Source: Octopus vulgaris | Taxonomy: Eukaryota | Length of the DNA: 64,000 nt | NCBI GenBank assembly: GCA_951406725.2 | Contig: OX597814.1 | Coordinates: forward strand, 91,760,001 to 91,824,000 | Direction of reading: 5' to 3' | Shown: piece by piece, positions 4,901-60,476 of the stretch | How positions within the stretch are numbered: position 1 is the first letter of the stretch | Layout: each line of letters begins with the position of its first letter | The notes under the pieces: model-generated | The model's database searches: none | Told to the model about the DNA's origin: nothing | Seen by the model: only the letters and a program-made list of their open reading frames with translations | Made by a program: the position numbers and the translations under genes

Positions 4901-4944
<44 letters not shown>

Positions 4945-4953
<9 letters not shown>

Positions 4954-7715
4954 AGTATATGAAAGAATGGAGTTGAACGACTAGTTAACAAATATCCTTT
5001 ATTCTCGACATATGTTTCGAAGGCTGCATATTCCTAATTCTGAAGGAATAAGGAGTACATTATGCAGATTTCTCATCATGAAAATCAAGGAACTTATGTC
5101 GACATCAAAATGCACAAAAGACTTTTAGCTGACCGCTCTCAAGGAGCCCATGGCGATAATGAGTGTCTCTTTATAATGAGTGACATCAGAGTGGCTGAAT
5201 GTAGAAGAATCTAGAAGTTTCTAAAGGTTCAAGAGTTCAAACGGAGTAGGAGGAGGGAGGTATAAGAATAGTAAGGGGAGAGAGTGCAGGTCAAAAGAAT
5301 GGTGGGTTTAAATGATTTCTTTTGTGAATGAGTGCCTGTGTGTGTGACTGTATATAACTGTCTTAATGTGTGTATGTGTGTGTCTGAATGCGTGATTGTG
5401 TTTGTGGATGGGTAGATGTCAGAAAACTGACAGCTGTGAGGTGAAAGATCTGTGTCTCTGTGTTCGATTATGTTTACTGTAGAGAAAGAAAAGGAGATAG
5501 CGAAAGGGAGAGAGACCCGGGCGAGGTGAGAGGCAACGCAAGAATGGATAGTAGTAATTGGGAATATAAGAAAATCTTTTTGACTATTGGGGTGAAATAT
5601 AGCAAATTTTTGTTTGGAAATCGAGGGGTTATCTATATTAGTCACTATTTATATGAGTGAAAGGTGTGTCTTTTCCAGTGTAAACACCTGTAGGATCTTT
5701 CGACGAATGTGTTTATTAAAGGGCCTTTGGCGAACAAAATATGAAAAAGTTTGGAATTACAGATGCCACAAAATTTTCTGCCTTTATCAAACGGGAAGGA
5801 CACCGACAAAATGGACCATTCGAGCTTGAACGTAGTGTTATTGTTCTTCAGACGCAAGACTAATTTGCTTAGCCCTGTGCTGTGTTGCTTTCTCTTATCT
5901 CTTAAAGTGGAATAATGGTTGGAGTTCCTTTGGGCTAATTTAGAAGAGGTTGAGCCAATATAGAAGTAGACATCGGTTCCAGAAGAGATTTTGCATTGGT
6001 AAGTGGTGTTTCTAATTTTGGAATTATTGGATAAGAACTTTAATCTATTGGGGTTGTTTTCCGATACTAAGACAGAGTTTTATTGTTGTGATAGGTGAAA
6101 AAATTGTTGCTGGCTTTGGCCACGATACTATTCATCTTATTATCATTACTATTAGTTGTAATATCGTCGGCAAATTCTCTGGCTATAGGAATGCTGCGAT
6201 TGTTATCATCAATAATATAACTGTTATTAAGAATGCTGGTACTATTACCACTAACACCACCACTGTTAATAATCTGGCTAATGTAATTATCATTATTACT
6301 ATTGCTGACGCTAATGCTGCTATGAATGTTGTTAATATCCATATTACTTCTATTATTATTATTATTGTATGTTACGTTGGAATGGGTAAGGGCGGTGTCG
6401 CTACTCATGGGTAGAGAGACCCTATTTAGCAGCTTATTATTGTGGGAAGCTATTATCTGCGAAAGATTTTTAGTATTTGAGAATGGTATTCTTAATTTAT
6501 GCGAATTTATAGTGGAGTAGTATCTAGAATTCCTAGGAAAATTCTTAGTAACGGCTTCACGGAATTGTAAAGGGAGATTAGACCTGATTTGTCTCCCGAA
6601 AGGAATCACAAACCAGATATATTTTTTTTGTTCTTGGAATGGCTGAGAGTGTTGACATTTACATTAAAGGGTATATTTCTGTGTTGTAGAATGGATTTAG
6701 GTTTACGCTGGCCTCCCCTGGTCCGTAAGTTATTATTGTAAAATATATTTGTGTCGACGTCGACGTTGCTAGAGCTGAAATCACTATTTATGTTATTTAT
6801 ATTATTATTAGAAGTTATCTTATCTTGATGGGCAGATATTAGTTTAGGACGGGCCGGATCGATATATGATACCTTATCCCTATAACCGGCCTTTGACAAG
6901 GCGGCATTATAAAATTCAGCTTTCTGTTTAAAAATGTCGACATTTGCTGATAACTTAGATAGTCTTAAGGATATATTTTTAACCAAATTATCGATGATAG
7001 TTTTTGCATGGTTACTGAAAATACTGACATATTTTAGGTTCGTAGACGGCTTATGGTAAAGGGAAGTAAGAATTATTATGCAAATTTATGGTAACATCTA
7101 AGAAATTGGCCTTAGTTAGTTCGTTGTCAAAAATTATGCTTATGCCCAGCCTGCTGAAAAATCTAACTAATCTATTTTTAGTCTTCTGTATCCTACTGAT
7201 AGGGGCATTCTGTAGGTAAAAAAGACAATCGTCTCGATACAGACCGCCGCAGATGTCCGGAAATTGGTCGGCTAATTCATATAGAATATAGATTCCGACC
7301 AAATCGGCTATCTGGGCGCTATCTGAGCTTCCCATTGGCACATCGAACGCGTTGGGAGTATCCTTACGGACCCATAACTTATCATCGAATTGAATGAAGG
7401 ATTTTCTAGCGGCTAGAATTATATTAATTTCCTCCTTGTCAGCCCTGCCTTGTTATGTGCGTGCCATAGGGCCTTATTGAGCACGATGGGGTTTATCGAA
7501 GGGTAGAAATGGGAAATATCGAATTGAATGAATTTAGTGCTATTTTTATTTGAAATGGAAGAGAACCATTCTACGACTTGAGTGGAGTTAGACCATATGT
7601 TGAGTTTAAGCTTATTAACTAATCTAGGTATGTATTTATCTAAAATGTACTTACTTATGGAACCGATATCGGAACTAGAAGGGCAAATGAGCCTTAATGC
7701 TGGGTTGATTTGGAA
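4945..7715 (-). mobile_element. 5'-truncated Penelope-like element, inverted left arm (RT, linker, GIY-YIG, 3' pLTR)
   Basis: Near-identical reverse complement of 8660-11337; ORF pieces contain FDISHFYPSI, MGSSDSAQIADLVG, GLYRDD and the GIY-YIG C-terminus; ends in (TA)n. Confidence 0.95.
4995..5091 (-). ncRNA. Type-I hammerhead motif in pLTR, core mutated (C3>A)
   Basis: Reverse complement reads TCCTTGATTTTC-ATGATGA-stemII-GAAAC-ATAT-GTC-GAGAATAAAGGA. Confidence 0.75.
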
Positions 7716-7734
7716 TTTTGATGTCGACATAAGT

Positions 7735-7831
7735 TCCTTGATTTTCCTGATGAGAAATCTGCATAATGTACTCCTTATTCCTTCAGAATTAGGAATATGC
7801 AGCCTTCGAAACATATGTCGAGTATAAATGA
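7735..7831 (+). ncRNA. Type-I hammerhead ribozyme, intact core
   Basis: CTGATGA 7747-7753; stem II GAAATCTGCATA/TATGCAGCCTTC; GAAAC 7808-7812; palindromic stem III ACATATGT; GTC cleavage triplet 7817-7819; stem I TCCTTGATTTTC/GAGTATAAATGA. Confidence 0.85.
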
Positions 7832-8068
7832 TATTTGTTAACTAGTCGTTCAACTCCATTCTTTCATATACTTATAATTTTAAAATAAACATACAAATTT
7901 CCGCACGAAGACACGTAGTCTATGCCTTAGGGACGTATTTTCAACCGTGTTCTTTCTGATGTGAATTTGCTAGCCAGGTATCGGTTATCTTTGAATTATC
8001 CTTAATAAGATAATTCATTCAATTACTCTATATTCATATGCAGCTTCGTCCAGATCCTGCTACCTTAA

Positions 8069-10639
8069 CAGATACCACACATTGAGTTGTTCGAGATTAA
8101 CGCATCCTTTAAGGACATACCAATACCACCAAACGAAACCTTCCTTAAGGAAATTGTCAACAAAACAAATGCATTCATCAACTGAATTAGATGGCTCCCT
8201 TTCTTCCATGATAACGAGGAATTAAAACAGAACGGTACAGAAACATCTTCCGAATATAAGAAGCTATTCAAGTCGAGGGAGACACCGCCACCCAATCCCA
8301 GACTGAAGAAATTTGAGGACGACTTGTGGGACATTGTAAGGAGCGTTAAATTCCGTAAATTGCCCCTTAGGAATAAACACCTTAGATACCTCAACAAAAT
8401 TACGAAAGATATAAACAGCTCAGACGCTATCCTGGTCCAATCAGATAAAACCAGGAATACATACAAGCTAGCAAAAAACCAGTATTTAGAATTGCTCAAG
8501 AAGGAAATACAGAAGAATTACAGAACTACGAATAAGGATACACTTAGAAAAGCCAACTTGGAAATTAAGAAAATCATGGTTACTCGTGGTTTGCAAATGA
8601 AAACACAACCACTCAACCCAAGGCAACCAAGATTCATCGTCAAGGACCATAAACCAAACTTCCAAACCAACCCAGCATTAAGGCTCATTTGCCCTTCTAG
8701 TTCCGACATCGGTTCCATCAGTAAGTACATTTTAGATAAATACATACCTAGATTAGTTAATAAGCTTAAACTCAACATATGGTCTAACTCCATTCAAGTC
8801 GTAGAATGGTTCTCTTCCATTTCTAATAAAAATAGCACTAAATTCATTCAATTCGATATTTCCCATTTCTACCCTTCGATAAACCCCATCGTGCTCAATA
8901 AGGCCCTATGGCACGCACATAACAAGGCAGGGCTGACAAGGAGGAAATTAATATAATTCTAGCCGCTAGAAAATCCTTCATTCGATGATAAGTTATGGGT
9001 CCGTAAGGATACTCCCAACTCGTTCGACGTGCCAATGGGAAGCTCAGATAGCGCCCAGGTAGCCGATTTGGTCGGAATCTATATTCTATATGAATTAGCC
9101 GACCAATTCCCGGACATCTGCGGCGGTCTGTATCGAGACGATTGTCTTTTTTACCTACAGAATGCCCCTATCAGTAGGATACAGAAGACTAAAAATAGAT
9201 TAGTTAGATTTTTCAGCAGGGTGGGCATAAGCATAATTTTTGACAACGAACTAACTAAGGTCAATTTCTTAGATGTTAACCTAAATCGATAATTTGGTTA
9301 AAAATATATCCTTAAGACTATCTAAGTTATCAGCAAATGTCGACATTTTTAAACAGAAAGATGAATTTTATAATGCCGCCTTGTCAAAGGCCGGTTATAG
9401 GGATAAGGTATCATATATCGATCCGGCCCGTCCTAAACTAATATCTGCCCATCAAGATAAGATAACTTCTAATAATAATATAAATAACATAAATAGTGAT
9501 TTCAGCTCTAGCAACGTCGACGTCGACACAAATATATTTTACAATAATAACTTACGGACCAGGGGAGGCCAGCGTAAACCTAAATCCATTCTACAACACA
9601 GAAATATACCCTTTAATGTAAATGTCAACACTCTCAGCCATTCCAAGAACAAAAAAAAATATATCTGGTTTGTGATTCCTTTCGGGAGACAAATCAGGTC
9701 TAATCTCCCTTTACAATTCCGTGAAGCCGTTACTAAGAATTTTCCTAGGAATTCTAGATACTACTCCACTATAAATTCGCATAAATTAAGAATACCATTC
9801 TCAAATACTAAAAATCTTTCGCAGATAATAGCTTCCCACAATAATAAGCTGCTAAATAGGGTCTCTCTACCCATGAGTAGCGACACCGCCCTTACCCATT
9901 CCAACGTAACATACAATAATAATAATAATAGAAGTAATATGGATATTAACAACATTCATAGCAGCATTAGCGTCAGCAATAGTAATAATGATAATAATAT
10001 TAGCCAGATTATTAACAGTGGTGGTGTTAGTGGTAATAGTACCAGTATTCTTAATAACAGTTATATTATTGATGATAACAATCGCAGCATTCCTATAGCC
10101 AGAGAATTTGCCGACGATATTACAACTAATAGTAATGATAATAAGATGAATAGTATCGTGGCCAAAGCCAGCAACAATTTTTTCACCTATCACAACAATA
10201 AAACTCTGTCTTAGTATCGGAAACCAACCCCAACAGATTAAAGTTCTTATCCCAAAATTCCAAAATTAGAAACACCACTTACCAATGCAAAATTTCTTCT
10301 GGAACCGATGTCTACTTCTATATTGGCACAACCTCTTCTAAATTAGCCCAAAGGATCTCCAACTATTATTCCACTTTAAGAGATAAGAGAAAGCAACACA
10401 GCACGGGGCTAAGCAAATTAGTCTGGCGTCTGAAGAACAATAACACTAAGTTCAAGCTCGAATGGCCCATTTTGTCGGTGTCCTTCCCGTTTGATAAAAG
10501 CAGAAAATTTTGTGGCATCTGTAATTCCGAACTTTTTCATATTTTGTTCGCCAAAGGCCCTTTAATAAACACAATCGTCGAAAGATCCTACAGGTGTTTA
10601 CACTGGAAAAGAGACACCTTTCACTCATATCAAAAATGA
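8069..10639 (+). pseudogene. PLE polyprotein (RT + Asn-rich linker + GIY-YIG endonuclease), interrupted by stops, frameshifts and deletions
   Basis: ORF pieces 8324-8956, 9029-9292 and 9294-10214, plus an unlisted frame 10214-10639: NTTYQCKISSGTDVYFYIGTT...STGLSKLVWRLK...CGICNSELFHIL...CLH. Confidence 0.9.
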
Positions 10640-11509
10640 CTAATATAGATAACCCCTCGATTTCCAAACAAAATTTTTGCTATATTTCACCCCAATAGTC
10701 AAAAAGATTTTTTTATATTCCCAATTACTACTATCCATTCTTGCGTTGCCTCTCACTTCGCCCGGTTCTTTCTCCCTTTCGCTATCTCCTTTTCTTTCTC
10801 TACAGTAAACATAATCGAACACAGAGACACAGACCTTTCACCTCACAGCTGTCAGTTATCTGACATCTACCCATCCACAAACACAATCACGCATTCAGAC
10901 ACACACATACACACATTAAGACAGTTATATACAGTCACACGCACAGACACTCATTCACAAAAGAAATCATTTAAACCCACCATTCTTTTGACCTGCACTC
11001 TCTCCCCTTACTATTCTTATACCTCCCTCCTCCTACTCCGTTTGAACTCTTGAACCTTTAGAAACTTCTAGATTCTTCTACATTCAGCCACTCTGACGTC
11101 ACTCATTATAAAGAGACACTCATTATCGCCATGGGCTCCTTGAGAGCGGTCAGCTAAAAGTTTTTTGTGCATTGTGTGCATTTTGATGTCTTTTGTGCAT
11201 TTTGATGAGAAATCTGCATAATGTACTCCTTATTCCTTCAGAATTAGGAATATGCAGCCTTCGAAACATATGTCGAGAATAAAGGATATTTGTTAACTAG
11301 TCGTTCAACTCCATTCTTTCATATACTTATAATTTTAAAATTAACATACAAATTTCCGCACGAAGACACGTAGTCTATGTCCTAGGGACGTAGCTTCAAC
11401 CGTGTTCTTTCTGATGTGAATTTGCTACCCAGGTATCGGTTATCTTTCGAATTATCCTTAATAAGATAATTCATTCAATTACTCAAATATATATATATAT
11501 GTGTATGTG

Positions 11510-15829: not shown

Positions 15830-15951
15830 TATATATATACAACGGGCTTCTTTCAGCTTCCATCTTCCAAATCCACTCACAAGGCTTTGGTCGGCCCGAG
15901 GCTATACACGCACACAGATTACACACACATACACACACAGATATATATAAA

Positions 15952-16297
15952 TAGGGGCAGGAGTGGCTGTCTGGCAAGTGGCTTACTCACCAACCACATG
16001 CTTCCGGGTTCAGTCCTACAGCGTGGAATCTTGGCCAAGTATCTTATACTATAACCTCGGGCCGACCAAAGCCTTGTGAGTGGATTTGGTAGACGGAAAC
16101 TGAAAGAAGCCCGCCGTATATATATACGTGCGTGGTTGTCAACCCACTATCGCTCGACAATAGATGTTGATGTGTTTACCTCTCTGTAACTTAGCGGTTC
16201 GCCAAGAACCGATAGAGTAAGTACTAGGCTTGCAAAAGACTGTACTCCAGCATGGCCGCAGTCAAATGACTGACATAAATAAAAGAATAAAAGAATA
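15952..16297 (+). mobile_element. SINE family C (GGCGCAGGAGTGGCTGTGTGGTAAG head, internal microsatellite, AAAAGAGT/AAAAGAAT tail)
   Basis: Homologous to 44145-44546, 44551-47004, 56221-56592 and 59676-60088. Confidence 0.85.
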
Positions 16298-16300
16298 TAT

Positions 16301-16522
16301 ATAAGGGGATGTTTAAAAGTTCTTGGTCATGAGTAAAAGAAAGTACAGGAAGATCAGTTAATTATGATTTTATTCAACATATTTCCCTCACAGATTCACA
16401 CACTTATTGCTGCAGTCCTTCAGTTTTCTAAGCCCTATTAAAGAAATCGGAAGTTTGGGCCTCGAGCGAAGCCCTTTCGAGAAGCCTTTAAAGCCAATAA
16501 CTTTTCTGCCCCACTCCTACGT
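16301..16522. mobile_element. Tc1/mariner-type MITE
   Basis: Degenerate TIRs AGGGGATGTTTAAAAGTTCTTGG / CCAATAACTTTTCTGCCCCACT flanked by TA; internal piece duplicated at ~16972-17024. Confidence 0.55.
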
Positions 16523-32279: not shown

Positions 32280-32479
32280 GCGCGGCCGCAAGTTGGTAAG
32301 AAGCGCTACACACTGGTCACTGCTGAAAAATCCGTCAGGCGGCAGAAAATATTTTATGTGTTCGTATGTTCGTTTAATCGCGCGGCCGTCAGTTGGTAAA
32401 CAGCCCTACACAATGGTCACTGCTGAAAAATCCGTCAGGCGGCAGAAAATATTTTATGTGTGCGTGTGTTCGTCTAATC
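32280..32479. repeat. ~100-bp tandem duplication in the PLE 3' UTR
   Basis: GCGCGGCCG...AATC unit present twice. Confidence 0.85.
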
Positions 32480-44108: not shown

Positions 44109-44144
<36 letters not shown>

Positions 44145-44146
<2 letters not shown>

Positions 44147-44546
44147 GGCGTAGGAGTGGCTGTGTGGTAAGTAGCTTGCTTACCAACGACATGGTTCCGA
44201 GTTCAGTCTCACTGCGTGGCACCTTGGGTACGTGTCTTCTACTATAGCTTCGGGCCGACCAAACCTTGTCAGTGGATTTGGTAGACGGAAACTGAAAGAA
44301 GCCCGTCGTATATATGTATGTATATATACATACCTGTGTGTGTTTGTGTGTCTGTGCCCTCCCACATCACTTGACAACCGATGCTACTGTGTTTACGCCC
44401 CCGTAACTTAGCGGTTCGGCAAACAAGACCGGTAGAATAAGTACTAGGCTTACAAAAAATAAGTCCTGGGATCAATTTGCTCGACTAAAGGTGGTGCTCC
44501 AGCATAGCCACAGTCAAATGACTGAAACAAGTAAAAGAGTAAAAGA
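44145..44546 (+). mobile_element. SINE family C
   Basis: Full-length copy, tail-to-tail with the next copy. Confidence 0.85.
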
Positions 44547-44787
44547 TATATACTCTTTTACTGTTTTGCTTGTTTCAGTCATTTGACTGCGGCCATGCTG
44601 GAGCACCGCCTTTAGTCGAGCAAATCGACCCCGGGACTTATTCTTTGTAAGCCTAGTACTTATTCTATCGGTCTCTTTTGCCGAACCGCTAAGTGACGGG
44701 GACGTAAACACAAACCAGCATCGGTTGTCAAGCAATGCTAGGGGACAAACACAGACACACAAACACACACACACACAAACACACACT

Positions 44788-44828
<41 letters not shown>

Positions 44829-45120
44829 TTTTTTTTTTCAACAATTGAGGGTAAAATTAATTAATTATTAATCAATTTCACCAAGTATTCAGTATGTAAA
44901 GGGACCATTTAAGGCGAATTCAAAATATTACATTTTATAAAGGGCTTAGTAAAATAAATTACTTTGCCACATACTGAACTCATTAGAAATAGCAGCCAAA
45001 AAAAATTTTTTTAGCCATTTCTAATACTTAAAGAAAATTTCTCTCAGATAGTGTTTACTCAAAATAACCCACGAAGGTATGGGGGTAAAAACATTAAAAA
45101 AATCACAAGTGCAAAGATTA

Positions 45121-45182
45121 TTTGAGAACGTACGTTTCTAGATCAGCCAAATACAATTCGACATTTCTTTCATCAGCTCAAA
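45121..45182 (-). ncRNA. Type-I hammerhead ribozyme (unit 1)
   Basis: TTTGAG-CTGATGA-stemII-GAAAC-GTAC-GTT-CTCAAA on the reverse strand. Confidence 0.85.
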
Positions 45183-45685
45183 ATTTCTTAATTCGGATTT
45201 GTAAACACTGAAAGTAGGAGCATACCATTTTGGCGACTTTTCACCTCCGAAGATCCGTTCAAACTAACAGTGCCAACAAATTCAAAATATGCAAGCGAAG
45301 AATTTCTGCCCTTCCCTTTCCACCCACGTGGGCTAAACTAGCAAACACCATGTTTTAGCGGTGAAAACCGAAGCATTAAACAGAGAGAAATGAATTATAA
45401 TTTCAACAATTGAGGGTAAAATTAATTAATTATTAATCAATTTCACCAAGTATTCAGTATGTAAAGGGACCATTTAAGGCGAATTCAAAATATTACATTT
45501 TATAAGGGGCTTAGTAAAATAAATTACTTTGCCACATACTGAACTCATTAGAAATAGCAGCCAAAAAAATTTTTTTTAGCCATTTCTAATACTTAAAGAA
45601 AATTTCTCTCAGATAGTGTTTACTCAAAATAACCCACGAAGGTATGGGGGTAAAAACATTAAAAAAATCACAAGTGCAAAGATTA

Positions 45686-45747
45686 TTTGAGAACGTACGT
45701 TTCTAGATCAGCCAAATACAATTCGACATTTCTTTCATCAGCTCAAA
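45686..45747 (-). ncRNA. Type-I hammerhead ribozyme (unit 2)
   Basis: Identical motif 565 nt from unit 1. Confidence 0.85.
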
Positions 45748-46476
45748 ATTTCTTAATTCGGATTTGTAAACACTGAAAGTAGGAGCATACCCTTTTGGCG
45801 ACTTTTAACCTCCGAAGATCCGTTCAAACTAACTGCCAACAAATTCAAAATATGCAAGCGAAGAATTTCTGCCCTTCCCTTTCCACCCACGTGGGCTAAA
45901 CTAGCAAACACCATGTTTTAGCGGTGAAAACCGAAGCATTAAACAGAGAGAAATGAATTATAATTTCAACAATTGTGATTTAAAAAATTTTTTTTTTATG
46001 TTTTTACCCCCATACCTTCGTGGGTTATTTTGAGTAAACACTATTTGAGAGAAATTTTCTTTAAGTATTAGAAATGGCTAAAAAAAAATTTTTTTTGGCT
46101 GCTATTTCTAATGAGTTCAGTATGTGGCAAAGTAATTTATTTTACTAAGCCCTTTATAAAATGTAATATTTTGAATTCGCCTTAAATGGTCCCTTTACAT
46201 ACTGAATACTTGGTGAAATTGATTAATAATTAATTAATTTTACCCTCAATTGTTGAAATTATAATTCATTTCTCTCTGTTTAATGCTTCGGTTTTCACCG
46301 CTAAAACATGGTGTTTGCTAGTTTAGCCCACGTGGGTGGAAAGGGAAGGGCAGAAATTCTTCGCTTGCATATTTTGAATTTGTTGGCACTGTTAGTTTGA
46401 ACGGTTCTTCGGAGGTGAAAAGTCGCCAAAAGGGTATGCTCCTACTTTCAGTGTTTACAAATCCGAATTAAGAAAT

Positions 46477-46538
46477 TTTGAGCTGATGAAAGAAATGTCG
46501 AATTGTATTTGGCTGATCTAGAAACGTACGTTCTCAAA
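46477..46538 (+). ncRNA. Type-I hammerhead ribozyme (inverted arm)
   Basis: CTGATGA 46483-46489, GAAAC 46521-46525, GTT 46530-46532; perfect 6-bp stem I TTTGAG/CTCAAA. Confidence 0.85.
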
Positions 46539-47033
46539 TAATCTTTGCACTTGTGATTTTTTTAATGTGTTTACCCCCATACCTTCGTGGGTTATTTTGA
46601 GTAAACACACTCTGAGAGAAATTTTCTTTAAGTATTAGAAATGGCTAAAAAAAATTTTTTTGGCTGCTATTTCTAATGAGTTCAGTATGTGGCAAAGTAA
46701 TTTATTTTACTAAGCCCCTTATAAAATGTAATATTTTGAATTCGCCTTAAATGGTCCCTTTACATACTGAATACTTGGTGAAATTGATTAATAATTAATT
46801 AATTTTACCCTCAATTGTTGAAATTATATATATATATATACGACAGGCTTCTTTAAGTTTCCGTCTACCAAATCCACTCACAAGGCATTGGTCGGCCCGG
46901 GGCTATAGCAGAAGACACTTGCCCAACATGCCACGCAGTGGGACTGAACCCGGAACCATGTGGTTGGTTAGCAAGCTACTTACCACACAGCCACGCCTGC
47001 GCCTATAAGTGTCCATATATATATATATATATA

Positions 47034-47067
<34 letters not shown>

Positions 47068-47112
47068 CATCATCATCATCATATACATATATACATACAT
47101 ATATATATATAT

Positions 47113-47320
<208 letters not shown>

Positions 47321-49597
47321 AAATGTAATTATATAGAGCATAAAGAATACAAAATACTGAGAAGAACGCACATGATTTCTAAAATCGAGTAAGAGTTACG
47401 TACTAATCATCATTTTAATAATTGTCTGATGGAATATGCAAAATCCGTGGATATGCAGCCAGTAAACAGTCACAAGAATATAAGTCCGGCTTGCTTGCCA
47501 CACACCGATTGGTCAAAATATAGTTTGTAACTTTCAGCTAGGTGGAGCCCATCGCAAGGTATTTAAAGGACAAATTTAATTATTTCACAACAGTTGTCAA
47601 TTGTGGAAGACGGCAATCAATACTACTACATAAATCTGATGATTGAGTAACATATTAAAGTACTAGTTTTATCACAATAAATATATAATATTCTATTTCT
47701 ATAATATTGTAAAATTGTAAAAATTGTAAATAATAAAACTTGAAAATCATACTATAGGGAGATGGCAGAGAAAATTAGGAAACAGCATCTGATCTAGCCT
47801 TGTCGTCAGAATCAGGATACGGGGTCAGATGCTCAAACACCACCTCTCACACACTAACAACACAACGGAAGCATGTTGCCTAAACCAGAGCCCTATCCAG
47901 ACAACCCAACCACCAGACAGTACCCGGTTAAGTTTTAAATCCGACGTGTTGTACTTGAAGACGTGCTCCAGCGTGGTGATATACATAGGATCGTCACATC
48001 ATGAATTCGCAAGTGCTACGTAAGCTATAATACCCATCAACAAGCCTCATTCCAGACCATACATCATACGCGGGGTAAACTATCTATCATTCTATCAACC
48101 TATTGAATCTATCGGTCTATCAACCCATTTCTCTATTGATCGATCAGTTAATATATCTGTCTGTCTTCCTAACTTTTAACCCATCTATATGTCTGTCTAT
48201 TCATTTATCTACCTATCTCCTTTTAATTGTCAAACAATAAACTTTATAACTAGAAGCATTTAAAGCTTCTATATCCGTGAACGTTTTTTCTTTGAGAAAA
48301 ATATTATATAACCATCAAATCATTAAAAAAATTAAAGCTCCTTGCTCTCTACTCTTGCATTTTATATTGCTTTACCTTTTTTTACATTCTTTCATCTTCC
48401 TCCATTTTTTTGTATTTTATCTTGTTTTAGTTTTACTCTATTTTCTTTTTCTTTTATTTTCTCTCATCTTTCTATCTACATATCTAACGGTGATACCCTG
48501 TTATCTTACTAAAATCTAGACCTTATGCCTGAGTTAGACCAACATACTATACTGAGTATCTGCATTTTTTTTCAAAGTTTCTTTATTCTTTTATTTAAAC
48601 AAAAGCTGACAACATCAAACAGATGCATCATTAATGGTATTGACCACGCTATCAATTATTCCAATACATTTATTTTCAGAATTCTCAAAGATTCGGGTAG
48701 GAGTGCATGCAACAGAACTAAATCTGTTACACGTTTCACTGGCAGATTCGTAAAAATGCTTCTCTGCAAAAGATAATATATTAATATATTATTAAATGTA
48801 TAATGCGGATTTTCTTGTCTGTTCAAAGAACATCTTTGTTCCAGTTATCTTACATTTTTAGATTTGACACGCCACTTCACAATTATGTATGAACTTCCGT
48901 GTTTAATTCTTTTCTAATTGCAGCTTAGTCAAACGTCTCCTACAATACTCAATATTGTCCATATAACCATTAGCACTTGAGTGAATTTTGGCAGTTGTAA
49001 ACTGCATAATCCCCCATATGTGTGTCTGTGTTTGTGTGCGGGCGCGCGTGCAAGTGTATGGTTGTGGGAGTGTATGTGCATTCATATGCATAAAAAGATC
49101 TAAACATCACTAAAGACCAATGTTGTTTGTGCTGCGTTACATTCTGCTATATGATATAGAGGTTCAGAAAATAGTTGCAATTAAATTAATATTGGAGTCA
49201 GTAACATCGAATAAATTATTGACTGCTGTGCTGCGGGACGTCTACACTCAATTCAATGACAGAAACTAGAAACTGATGTGAATCTTAATGATAATGAATG
49301 CAATGGCACTTTATTTCCATCTCCACGCTGTTCCAGTGACCAGTTGCACAAGTTGAAATGAATCAATTAACTGAATTATAATGGATAACTAATCAAATCA
49401 CAGTCTACCATTTACGTCATACATTGAAATTATTTTTCTAGGAATCGCACGTATTTATTGTAAGCGCTTGGCTTGACTCCATTAAGGTCTGGGAGAAATA
49501 GCAAAAATGTCTTAATCAAATCACAACACCCACACACACACATATATGTATGATGTATGTGTGTATGTAAGTACATATATATATATATATATATACA

Positions 49598-55894: not shown

Positions 55895-56220
55895 GGAGAG
55901 AGAGAGACAGACAGATAGACAGACAGATACTCAGACAGACAGATAGATAGTATTCGAAAGTGTGCTGGGACGCACAAGTTACTTGAAACTTTTCGATCGA
56001 TGAACAGTTCCACACTCCACTTCTATATCCTATAACCCTTGAAAACAACCCTAATATCACTGGATAGGCTAACAATCGGAATTACAACCATGTTATATAA
56101 ACGTTTTTGCGATTAATACAGAGGTGCCAATCGGATCAGGGAAACTCGTATATGCTAAATACAAATTAAAAATATCTACTACCATTTCTGAATTTCTGAT
56201 ATATATGTGTATATATATAT

Positions 56221-56588
56221 ATTCTTTTATTCTTTTAATTGTTTTAGTCAGACTGTGGCTATGCTTCTGCACTGTCTTTTGTCGAGAAAGCCTATGACTT
56301 ATTCTATCGGTCACTTTTGCTGAACCACTATGTTGCGGGAACGTAAACATGCCAGCATCGGCTGTGAAGCGATGTTGGAGGGACAAATACAGACACACCA
56401 ATACACACACACACACATATATATATGTATATATACATATATCAGTGACAAGCTCCTTTCACTTTCCGTCGGCCTGAGGCTATAGTAGAGGATACTTGCC
56501 CAAGGTGCTACGCAGTGGACTGTACCCTGAACCATGTGAGGAACCATGTGGTAAGCAAGCTACTTGCTACACACCCACTTCTCCTACG

Positions 56589-56592
<4 letters not shown>
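56221..56592 (-). mobile_element. SINE family C, degenerate
   Basis: Homology to 59676-60088 with deletions. Confidence 0.75.
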
Positions 56593-56670
<78 letters not shown>

Positions 56671-59144: not shown

Positions 59145-59354
59145 TATATATATGTATCTATATATATATACATACATACATACATATATATATATATGTA
59201 TATATATACATACATACATATATATATATATACATACATGCATACATATATATATATATATATACATACATGCATACATATATATATATATATATACATA
59301 CATGCATACATATATATATATATAACATACATATACATATATATATATATATAT

Positions 59355-59674
59355 TACGGAGTTGTACTCGCATAGCAAGTGATTCGATCTGAGATCGTGT
59401 GCTGTAACGAAAACAATTGCAGCGTGGAAGGTGTTTGTAAGCCATTTAAGAAACACACAAAAGCCGTTCGATTCACTTCAACATTTAAGTTTAATTTGTC
59501 AAAATATTTTCGTCGCTAAAATCCGCGACCTGTTCACTGACAAAAATCCGTGCTGCATCTGATTCTTGATGCATCACGGATTTTTGTCAGTGAACAGGTC
59601 GCGGATTGAAGTGAATCGAACGGTTTTTGTGTGTTTCTTAAATGGCTTAGAAACACCTTTCACGCTGCAATTGT
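59355..59674. mobile_element. Palindromic non-coding element carrying a G3:C8 hammerhead
   Basis: Arms ~59413-59559 and ~59568-59674; the right arm lacks ~40 nt; left end abuts (TA)n. Confidence 0.8.
59495..59544 (-). ncRNA. Minimal type-I hammerhead, G3:C8 core variant
   Basis: TTTGTCA-GTGAACA-G-GTCGC-GGATTTTA-GCGAC-GAAA-ATAT-TT-TGACAAA: 7-bp stem I, 5-bp stem II, palindromic stem III AATATT. Confidence 0.75.
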
Positions 59675-59675
59675 G

Positions 59676-60476
<801 letters not shown>

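What the first reader, a model, noticed from the sequence alone, without database searches (positions are those of the whole stretch)
59495..59544. Natural G3:C8 core-variant minimal hammerhead
Seen on (-): TTTGTCA GTGAACA G GTCGC(GGATTTTA)GCGAC GAAA ATAT TT TGACAAA. All three helices form, but the core is GUGAACA instead of CUGANGA. Known: C3 and G8 form a Watson-Crick pair in the active HHR fold, and compensatory swaps can rescue activity. Inference: this is a covariant HHR that a CUGANGA pattern search would miss, with an unusual predicted UUU cleavage triplet.
Basis: partly seen in the sequence, partly recalled or inferred. Interest (0 to 1): 0.75.

Follow-up and report, generated by a model that had tools for sequence, protein, structure and literature searches.

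The report
Swapped-core hammerhead in Penelope retrotransposon
This is the leftover end of a jumping gene whose family carries, in over five thousand motif matches in this genome, a hammerhead-shaped RNA motif with two paired core letters swapped (G3:C8); sister families keep that pair in two other ways, so it is likely a natural self-cutting variant, though cutting is untested and this copy is predicted to be misfolded.

Summary
The 50-mer is real and not chance: 1611 exact genomic matches. It lies in the pseudo-LTR of a Penelope-like retrotransposon family (RT plus C-terminal GIY-YIG), on the sense strand 49 nt before the ORF start. G3 and C8 are the family state (64 and 62 of 67 arms chosen without the motif). 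Sister families carry C3:G8 or U3:A8 at the same place, with compensated stems, which argues for a constrained catalytic core. None of 90 arms begins at the predicted cut, so insertion likely uses uncut RNA. Natural U3:A8 and laboratory C3G/G8C rescue are published; I found no natural G3:C8 in eight searches, but two key papers were unavailable. This scan already noted G3:C8 Penelope hammerheads elsewhere in this genome and in others. Verdict: new variant of a known kind; cleavage untested.

The parts
59495..59544 (-). Type I minimal hammerhead motif with G3:C8 core pair (G3 59537, C8 59532), extra G after A9, 5-bp helix II, 7-bp helix I, palindromic 2-bp helix III; predicted scissile bond between 59502 and 59501
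59354..59562 (-). Direct arm: 5'-truncated pseudo-LTR plus tail of the Penelope-like family A
   Evidence: 94-98% identical to the pLTR of ORF-bearing copies L061, L096-L099
59354..59445 (-). First 30 codons of the element ORF (ATG at 59445-59443), cut at the tail end
   Evidence: same sequence opens the RT-EN ORF in L097 and L099; homologous to the N-terminus of sister family B
59354..59411 (-). About 60-nt tail between the two preferred 3' ends of family copies
   Evidence: 3' ends of 90 arms fall at offsets 128-139 (43) and 181-193 (47)
59568..59674 (+). Inverted partial copy of the pLTR without the tail; holds the 5' half of the motif (59583-59605) but lacks 40 nt including helix II 3' strand, GAAA and the cut site
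   Evidence: pairs with the direct arm in the predicted fold
59563..59567 (.). 5-nt spacer at the fold-back junction

Best explanation
The 50 bases are the hammerhead motif of the pseudo-LTR of a Penelope-like retrotransposon family in which the 3:8 core pair is G3:C8 instead of C3:G8; in full-length elements it likely cuts slowly and only with help (the element's protein or a second copy), while this window copy is a truncated fold-back remnant predicted to be misfolded. Shown: family identity, position on the sense strand just upstream of the ORF start, fixation of G3 and C8, three different Watson-Crick pairs at 3:8 across related families, and absence of inserted copies that start at the cut. 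Inferred: that selection on catalysis kept the pair; that G3:C8 arose once in the family A lineage; that cutting needs helix III stabilised in trans; that the cut RNA serves processing or translation of the element transcript rather than being the insertion template. Untested: any cleavage.
For: Element: ORF of at least 1025 aa with RT motifs (read by eye) and Pfam GIY-YIG; pLTR runs into the ORF in L097 and L099; inverted arms, two 3' ends bounding a tail, and 8-18 bp target duplications in 16 of 42 insertions (10 more in simple repeats), the PLE layout of PMC8557442 and PMC11167929. Fixation: 5204 matches with C8 against 375 without; 96 of the first 100 C8 matches have G3; in 90 arms picked by a downstream motif G3 64 of 67, C8 62 of 67, and the only high-frequency variants inside the motif are in loop II and one U-A to U.G change in helix I (13 of 80). 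Covariation: family B (57% identical protein) has C3:G8 in 53 of 53 motifs, with G-C to A-U in helix II and A-U to G-C in helix III; with N at both positions, 3 of 3 matches were U3:A8 and 19 of 21 were G3:C8 (13) or C3:G8 (6); C3:G8 and U3:A8 copies lie behind the homologous endonuclease end. An older G3:C8 lineage differs at N7 and loop II. Tree: G3:C8 family is sister to a C3:G8/U3:A8 clade (99/99), outgroups C3:G8 or U3:A8. In an intact pLTR helices I and II form with probability 0.83-0.93 and 1.00. Literature: C3G/G8C partly restores a PLE hammerhead, which needs the element protein (PMC11167929).
Against: No cleavage data. Helix III is the weakest kind (-0.2 kcal/mol against -4.8 for a palindrome seen in relatives) and the two-copy fold did not form it. 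UUU is called a poor substrate (PMC6908138) and G3:C8 rescue is only partial, so three handicaps add up. The young family B amplified with A9 replaced by C in 53 of 53 motifs, showing that a core change is tolerated. 0 of 90 arms start within 2 nt of the cut. G3.G8 mismatches are twice as frequent as G3.A8 among decayed copies (24 and 12 of the first 100) and 3 of 9 informative G3.G8 copies have G8 in both arms, so a minor unpaired source is not excluded. The swap appears to be a single event, so G3:C8 itself has one independent origin here. The U3:A8 pattern was only weakly enriched genome-wide (61 against 37 control), and some U3:A8 copies could be double transitions.
Confidence: 0.7

Rival explanations
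1. The motif is a hammerhead descendant that no longer cuts; the fold, including the 3:8 pair, is kept as a binding or positioning structure for the element's protein or for translation.
For: Weak helix III, UUU and G3:C8 together; A9C fixed in young family B; no insertion starts at the cut; in the anole element, catalytic mutants do not impair insertion and no RNA ends were found at the cut (PMC11167929).
Against: U4, G5, A6, G12, A13, A14, A15.1-U16.1 and non-G at 17 are kept, and the 3:8 pair, a contact of the active core, stays Watson-Crick in three forms. Part of that invariance across families is built into my search patterns.
Confidence: 0.22
2. The conserved letters act at DNA level as an internal promoter (initiator- and downstream-element-like), and the hammerhead look is a by-product.
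For: 5' ends of arms pile up just upstream: 38 of 90 at offsets -19 to -10, mode -15, where the sequence resembles an initiator (consensus recalled, not from a call). PLE pLTRs hold promoters (PMC6765202).
Against: A DNA promoter does not explain double-sided changes in helices II and III or three pairings at 3:8. It can coexist with the ribozyme.
Confidence: 0.05
3. The sequence is part of a palindromic MITE-like DNA element and the hammerhead shape is chance.
For: The locus is a long fold-back and Rfam finds no hammerhead.
Against: Copies continue into an RT-GIY-YIG ORF on both sides; arms are unequal, with variable centres and a tail; orthologous motifs have canonical cores.
Confidence: 0.02

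Closest known systems
Minimal type I hammerheads in pLTRs of metazoan Penelope-like elements (Cervera and de la Pena 2014, PMC4209133; main text parts 1-2 of 4 and supplement file 2 parts 1-2 of 3 read)
   Same: Type I topology, pLTR location, one unpaired base after A9, G10.1-C11.1, short palindromic helix III, mostly solitary truncated copies, pairs on opposite strands, U17 frequent; natural U3:A8 reported in Schistosoma.
   Different: G3:C8 appears in none of the 56 aligned examples (C3:G8, U3:A8 or U3.G8 only); the extra base is G, outside their H consensus (one listed precedent); helix I is longer (7 bp).
Hammerhead of the anole Poseidon element PAc (Frangieh et al. 2024, PMC11167929; parts 1-2 of 4 read)
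   Same: Motif next to the ORF start, two reverse-transcription start sites bounding a tail, AT-rich targets, insertions not starting at the cut; engineered C3G/G8C partly active.
   Different: PAc is naturally C3:G8 and its ORF starts inside helix II; here G3:C8 is the natural state and the ATG is 49 nt downstream; the protein has the CX3CX2C linker that marks Neptune/Nematis-type elements.
Natural core variants of hammerheads (Perreault et al. 2011, PMC3088659; section 8 and passages read)
   Same: Compensatory change at the 3:8 pair in nature.
   Different: Only U3:A8 is named there.

Membership tests
Hammerhead ribozyme, type I minimal | Helices I and II around the core, G10.1-C11.1 | tested here: met
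   double-sided changes across families
Hammerhead ribozyme, type I minimal | Literal CUGANGA core | tested here: not met
   core is GUGAACA; Rfam models give no match
Hammerhead ribozyme, type I minimal | Watson-Crick pair between positions 3 and 8 | tested here: met
   G3:C8 fixed; C3:G8 and U3:A8 in sister families
Hammerhead ribozyme, type I minimal | U4, G5, A6, A9, G12, A13, A14, A15.1-U16.1, H17 | tested here: met
   all present; 91-100% conserved in 67-80 arms chosen without the motif
Hammerhead ribozyme, type I minimal | Helix III formed as monomer or palindromic dimer | tested here: inconclusive
   palindrome present but duplex -0.2 kcal/mol; not formed in the two-copy fold
Hammerhead ribozyme, type I minimal | Site-specific self-cleavage after N17 | not testable with these tools
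   only assembled contigs available; needs a bench assay
Penelope-like element, C-terminal EN+ | Single ORF with RT and C-terminal GIY-YIG | tested here: met
   Pfam GIY-YIG 1.8e-05; RT motifs by eye, weak RVT_1 in sister protein; no copy with a wholly unbroken ORF among the 4 long regions
Penelope-like element, C-terminal EN+ | pLTRs in tandem or inverted arrangement, tail, AT-rich or (TA)n targets | tested here: met
Neptune or Nematis clade | CX2-5CxxC linker before the GIY-YIG motif | tested here: met
   CX3CX2C in the ORF; feature from PMC8557442
Neptune or Nematis clade | Grouping with named reference RTs | not tested
   no named reference sequences were in hand; tree holds unnamed relatives only
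MITE / DNA transposon | Matching terminal inverted repeats and no retroelement ORF | tested here: not met
   unequal arms with tail; continuity with RT-EN ORF

The most novel reading that the evidence does not exclude
One clade of Penelope-like elements has sampled three Watson-Crick pairs at the hammerhead 3:8 position, and the G3:C8 form, so far described only as a weakened laboratory rescue, is a working ribozyme that has ridden a multi-thousand-copy expansion. Since insertions are never made from cut RNA, the cut serves the element's message (a new 5' end 56 nt before the start codon, enabling translation) rather than its template, which would make this clade a ready series for asking what Penelope hammerheads are for.
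Probability: 0.25. Interest if true: 0.62.

Novelty: new variant of a known kind. Interest (0 to 1): 0.42.

Why it matters
Hammerhead searches use CUGANGA, sometimes U3:A8; a G3:C8 family with over 5000 motif matches in one genome is invisible to them and to Rfam, so counts of natural hammerheads and statements that some elements lack one may be too low. Three pairings at 3:8 in one clade are natural comparative support for the tertiary pair and for selection on the core of Penelope hammerheads, whose role is still open (PMC8557442, PMC11167929). The chemistry itself is not surprising, because the double mutant is known to be partly active, and the scan has noted the variant before.

Tried and rejected
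Rfam at E 10 over 30000-64000 and 59370-59900: only hairpin-type microRNA models below gathering score, no hammerhead. MITE reading rejected. Sequencing runs: no RNA holder listed on record; eight runs laid were all contigs, which cannot show ends, strand or level; within the motif the listed differences were all in loop II, but only 40 of 112 rows were shown. An amplified G3.G8 intermediate was sought: of 24 such copies 9 had an inverted arm over position 8, 6 with C and 3 with G, so most look like later mutations; no tree of them was built. A spliced form at the acceptor-like sequence upstream of the motif: 0 of 79 junctions joined to a distant same-strand part of the element and 60 of 79 keep the AG; one sub-count in that script had an offset error and is not used. 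Pair counts on a 30-row alignment (covariation 0.250, 0 of 500 shuffles) are partly circular because rows were picked with patterns fixing U4-A6, GTC/GAC, GAAA and often 3 and 8, and helix I was misaligned in some rows; I rely instead. Metagenome relatives: 18 motifs in 17 of 78 loci, 15 C3:G8, 1 U3:A8, 2 doubtful, no G3:C8. PDB search with the ORF: 0 hits. One row (L275, 50 residues) was left out of the tree. Lunse et al. 2017 (PMC5785218), Przybilski and Hammann 2007 (PMC1986816) and Kore et al. 1998 (PMC147825) were not held, and supplement file 1 of PMC4209133 was not searchable; any of these could already describe natural G3:C8 or give its rate.

Full report
Observation. The sequence is at 59495-59544 on the minus strand as written. 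Helix I (7 bp) and helix II (5 bp) form in the isolated RNA. The core reads G3 U4 G5 A6 A7 C8 A9, then one extra G, then G10.1. Helix III is A15.1-A15.2-U-A-U16.2-U16.1, two pairs around a two-base loop; it does not form in a monomer and its palindrome is worth only -0.2 kcal/mol as a dimer. The motif is the only hit of a relaxed descriptor in the window, and 0 of 60 shuffles give one with such stems. Rfam has no hammerhead match here.

Context in the window. The motif lies in a fold-back: a direct arm 59562-59354 and an inverted partial arm 59568-59674 that lacks 40 nt. A transcript through both arms buries the 5' half of the motif; forcing the hammerhead costs about 34 kcal/mol, against 1.3-1.5 without the inverted arm or in an intact element. 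This copy is therefore predicted to be inactive unless transcription starts at the junction.

The family. The exact 50-mer has 1611 matches in G000, control 0; a downstream 33-mer has 6398. Longer copies continue upstream through about 1.1 kb of untranslated sequence into an ORF ending in a GIY-YIG domain, and tandem copies L097 and L099 continue downstream into the start of the same ORF, 49 nt after the motif. An open frame of 1025 aa with RT motifs, a CX3CX2C linker and the endonuclease was recovered; none of the four long regions held a wholly unbroken ORF. Copies end at two places about 60 nt apart, and 16 of 42 insertions have 8-18 bp target duplications, 10 more sit in simple repeats. 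This is the layout of Penelope-like elements (PMC8557442, passages; PMC11167929, parts 1-2). A protein labelled Octopus vulgaris matches G000 at 100%, so the host is probably an octopus.

Is G3:C8 the family state? Yes. With N at 3, 5204 matches have C8 and 375 do not; 96 of the first 100 C8 matches have G3, and 23 of the first 100 non-C8 matches are C3:G8 copies of another family (my tally by eye of the listed rows). In the first 90 of 6398 arms picked by a motif outside the ribozyme, G3 is in 64 of 67 and C8 in 62 of 67; high-frequency variants inside the motif are confined to loop II and one change that turns U-A into U.G in helix I (13 of 80), whereas six flanking positions vary in a fifth or more of the arms. 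Some of the 90 are two arms of one insertion.

Is it a covariant? Family B (57% identical protein, a 1309-aa ORF with a homologous N-terminus) has the motif at the same place with C3:G8 in 53 of 53 occurrences and double-sided changes in helices II and III. A pattern excluding G3 found 7592 matches against 1354 control, mostly family B and further C3:G8 families. After reading an earlier scan note I looked for U3:A8: 61 matches against 37 control, including recognisable family members; with N at both positions 3 of 3 matches of one type were U3:A8 and 19 of 21 of another were paired, 13 G3:C8 and 6 C3:G8. An older G3:C8 lineage with C or U at position 7 and a different loop II exists. C3:G8 and U3:A8 copies lie behind the homologous endonuclease end on the same strand. 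In a 17-row protein tree the G3:C8 family is sister to a C3:G8/U3:A8 clade (99/99; joint branch 86/92) and metagenome outgroups carry C3:G8 or U3:A8, so one origin of G3:C8 in this lineage is the simplest reading.

Against activity. Helix III is very weak, UUU is described as a poor substrate (PMC6908138, passage), and C3G only partly rescues G8C (PMC8495972, passage). Young family B has C in place of A9 in all 53 motifs. None of 90 arms starts within 2 nt of the predicted cut; 38 start 10-19 nt upstream of the motif and 17 more align from its first base. G3.G8 is somewhat over-represented among decayed copies and 3 of 9 informative ones have it in both arms.

Mechanism. Shown: identity, position, fixation, covariation, uncut 5' ends. 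Inferred: the element is transcribed from its pLTR; the motif folds helices I and II; helix III is completed by a second copy or by the element's protein, as for the anole element, whose hammerhead cuts only with protein, is partly rescued by C3G/G8C and is not needed for insertion (PMC11167929); cutting would leave a new 5' end 56 nt before the ATG, and self-cleavage has been tied to cap-independent translation in other systems (PMC13725137, passages). I put cutting under some condition at about 0.7 and a non-cutting structural relic at about 0.2.

Novelty. Hammerheads in PLE pLTRs, the extra base after A9 and natural U3:A8 are published (PMC4209133; PMC3088659). G3:C8 appeared only as a laboratory variant in eight full-text searches and in none of the 56 aligned natural examples. 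Lunse et al. 2017 and Przybilski and Hammann 2007 could not be read, so prior description is not excluded. Earlier unreviewed notes of this scan describe G3:C8 Penelope hammerheads in this genome and others; these are not independent evidence. Also consulted: PMC6765202 (passages), PMC6962438 (passages), bioRxiv 10.64898/2026.07.22.740005 (part 1 of 5 and passages). Verdict: new variant of a known kind, interest 0.42.

Noticed in passing
family A arms L412-L501; window 59562-59554: 5' ends pile up 10-19 nt upstream of the hammerhead (38 of 90, mode -15), at a spot that looks like both an initiator and a splice acceptor with branch point (consensus motifs recalled). No spliced junction found in 79 cases; a transcription start or RT stop is more likely.
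   Followed up: partly
L100-L129 (family B pLTR): The young, ORF-intact sister family has A9 replaced by C and U17, while older copies (L131, L134, L147) have A9 and C17: a second core change fixed in an expanding family.
   Followed up: partly
window 59676-60120, with copies at 44113-44777, 46825-47335, 56215-56625, 15941-16301: Interspersed SINE-like repeats abut the inverted arm; resemblance to an octopus SINE is recalled, not tested.
   Followed up: no
window 4944-11337: A 2-kb inverted duplication (97% identical) with ORF fragments of another retroelement, probably a different Penelope-like family.
   Followed up: no
window 44816-46840: Complex tandem and inverted repeats of 270-850 bp at 97-99% identity.
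   Followed up: no
window 32280-32479: Two tandem 100-bp units at 91% identity.
   Followed up: no
L063:7129-8295 (L037): The 3' region and pLTR of family A are joined to the endonuclease end of a different Penelope-like ORF, a chimera or nested insertion.
   Followed up: no
L376:1735: A metagenome relative has a hammerhead-like motif with A3.G8 and a 6-bp helix II downstream of its ORF; single sequence, could be a mutation.
   Followed up: no
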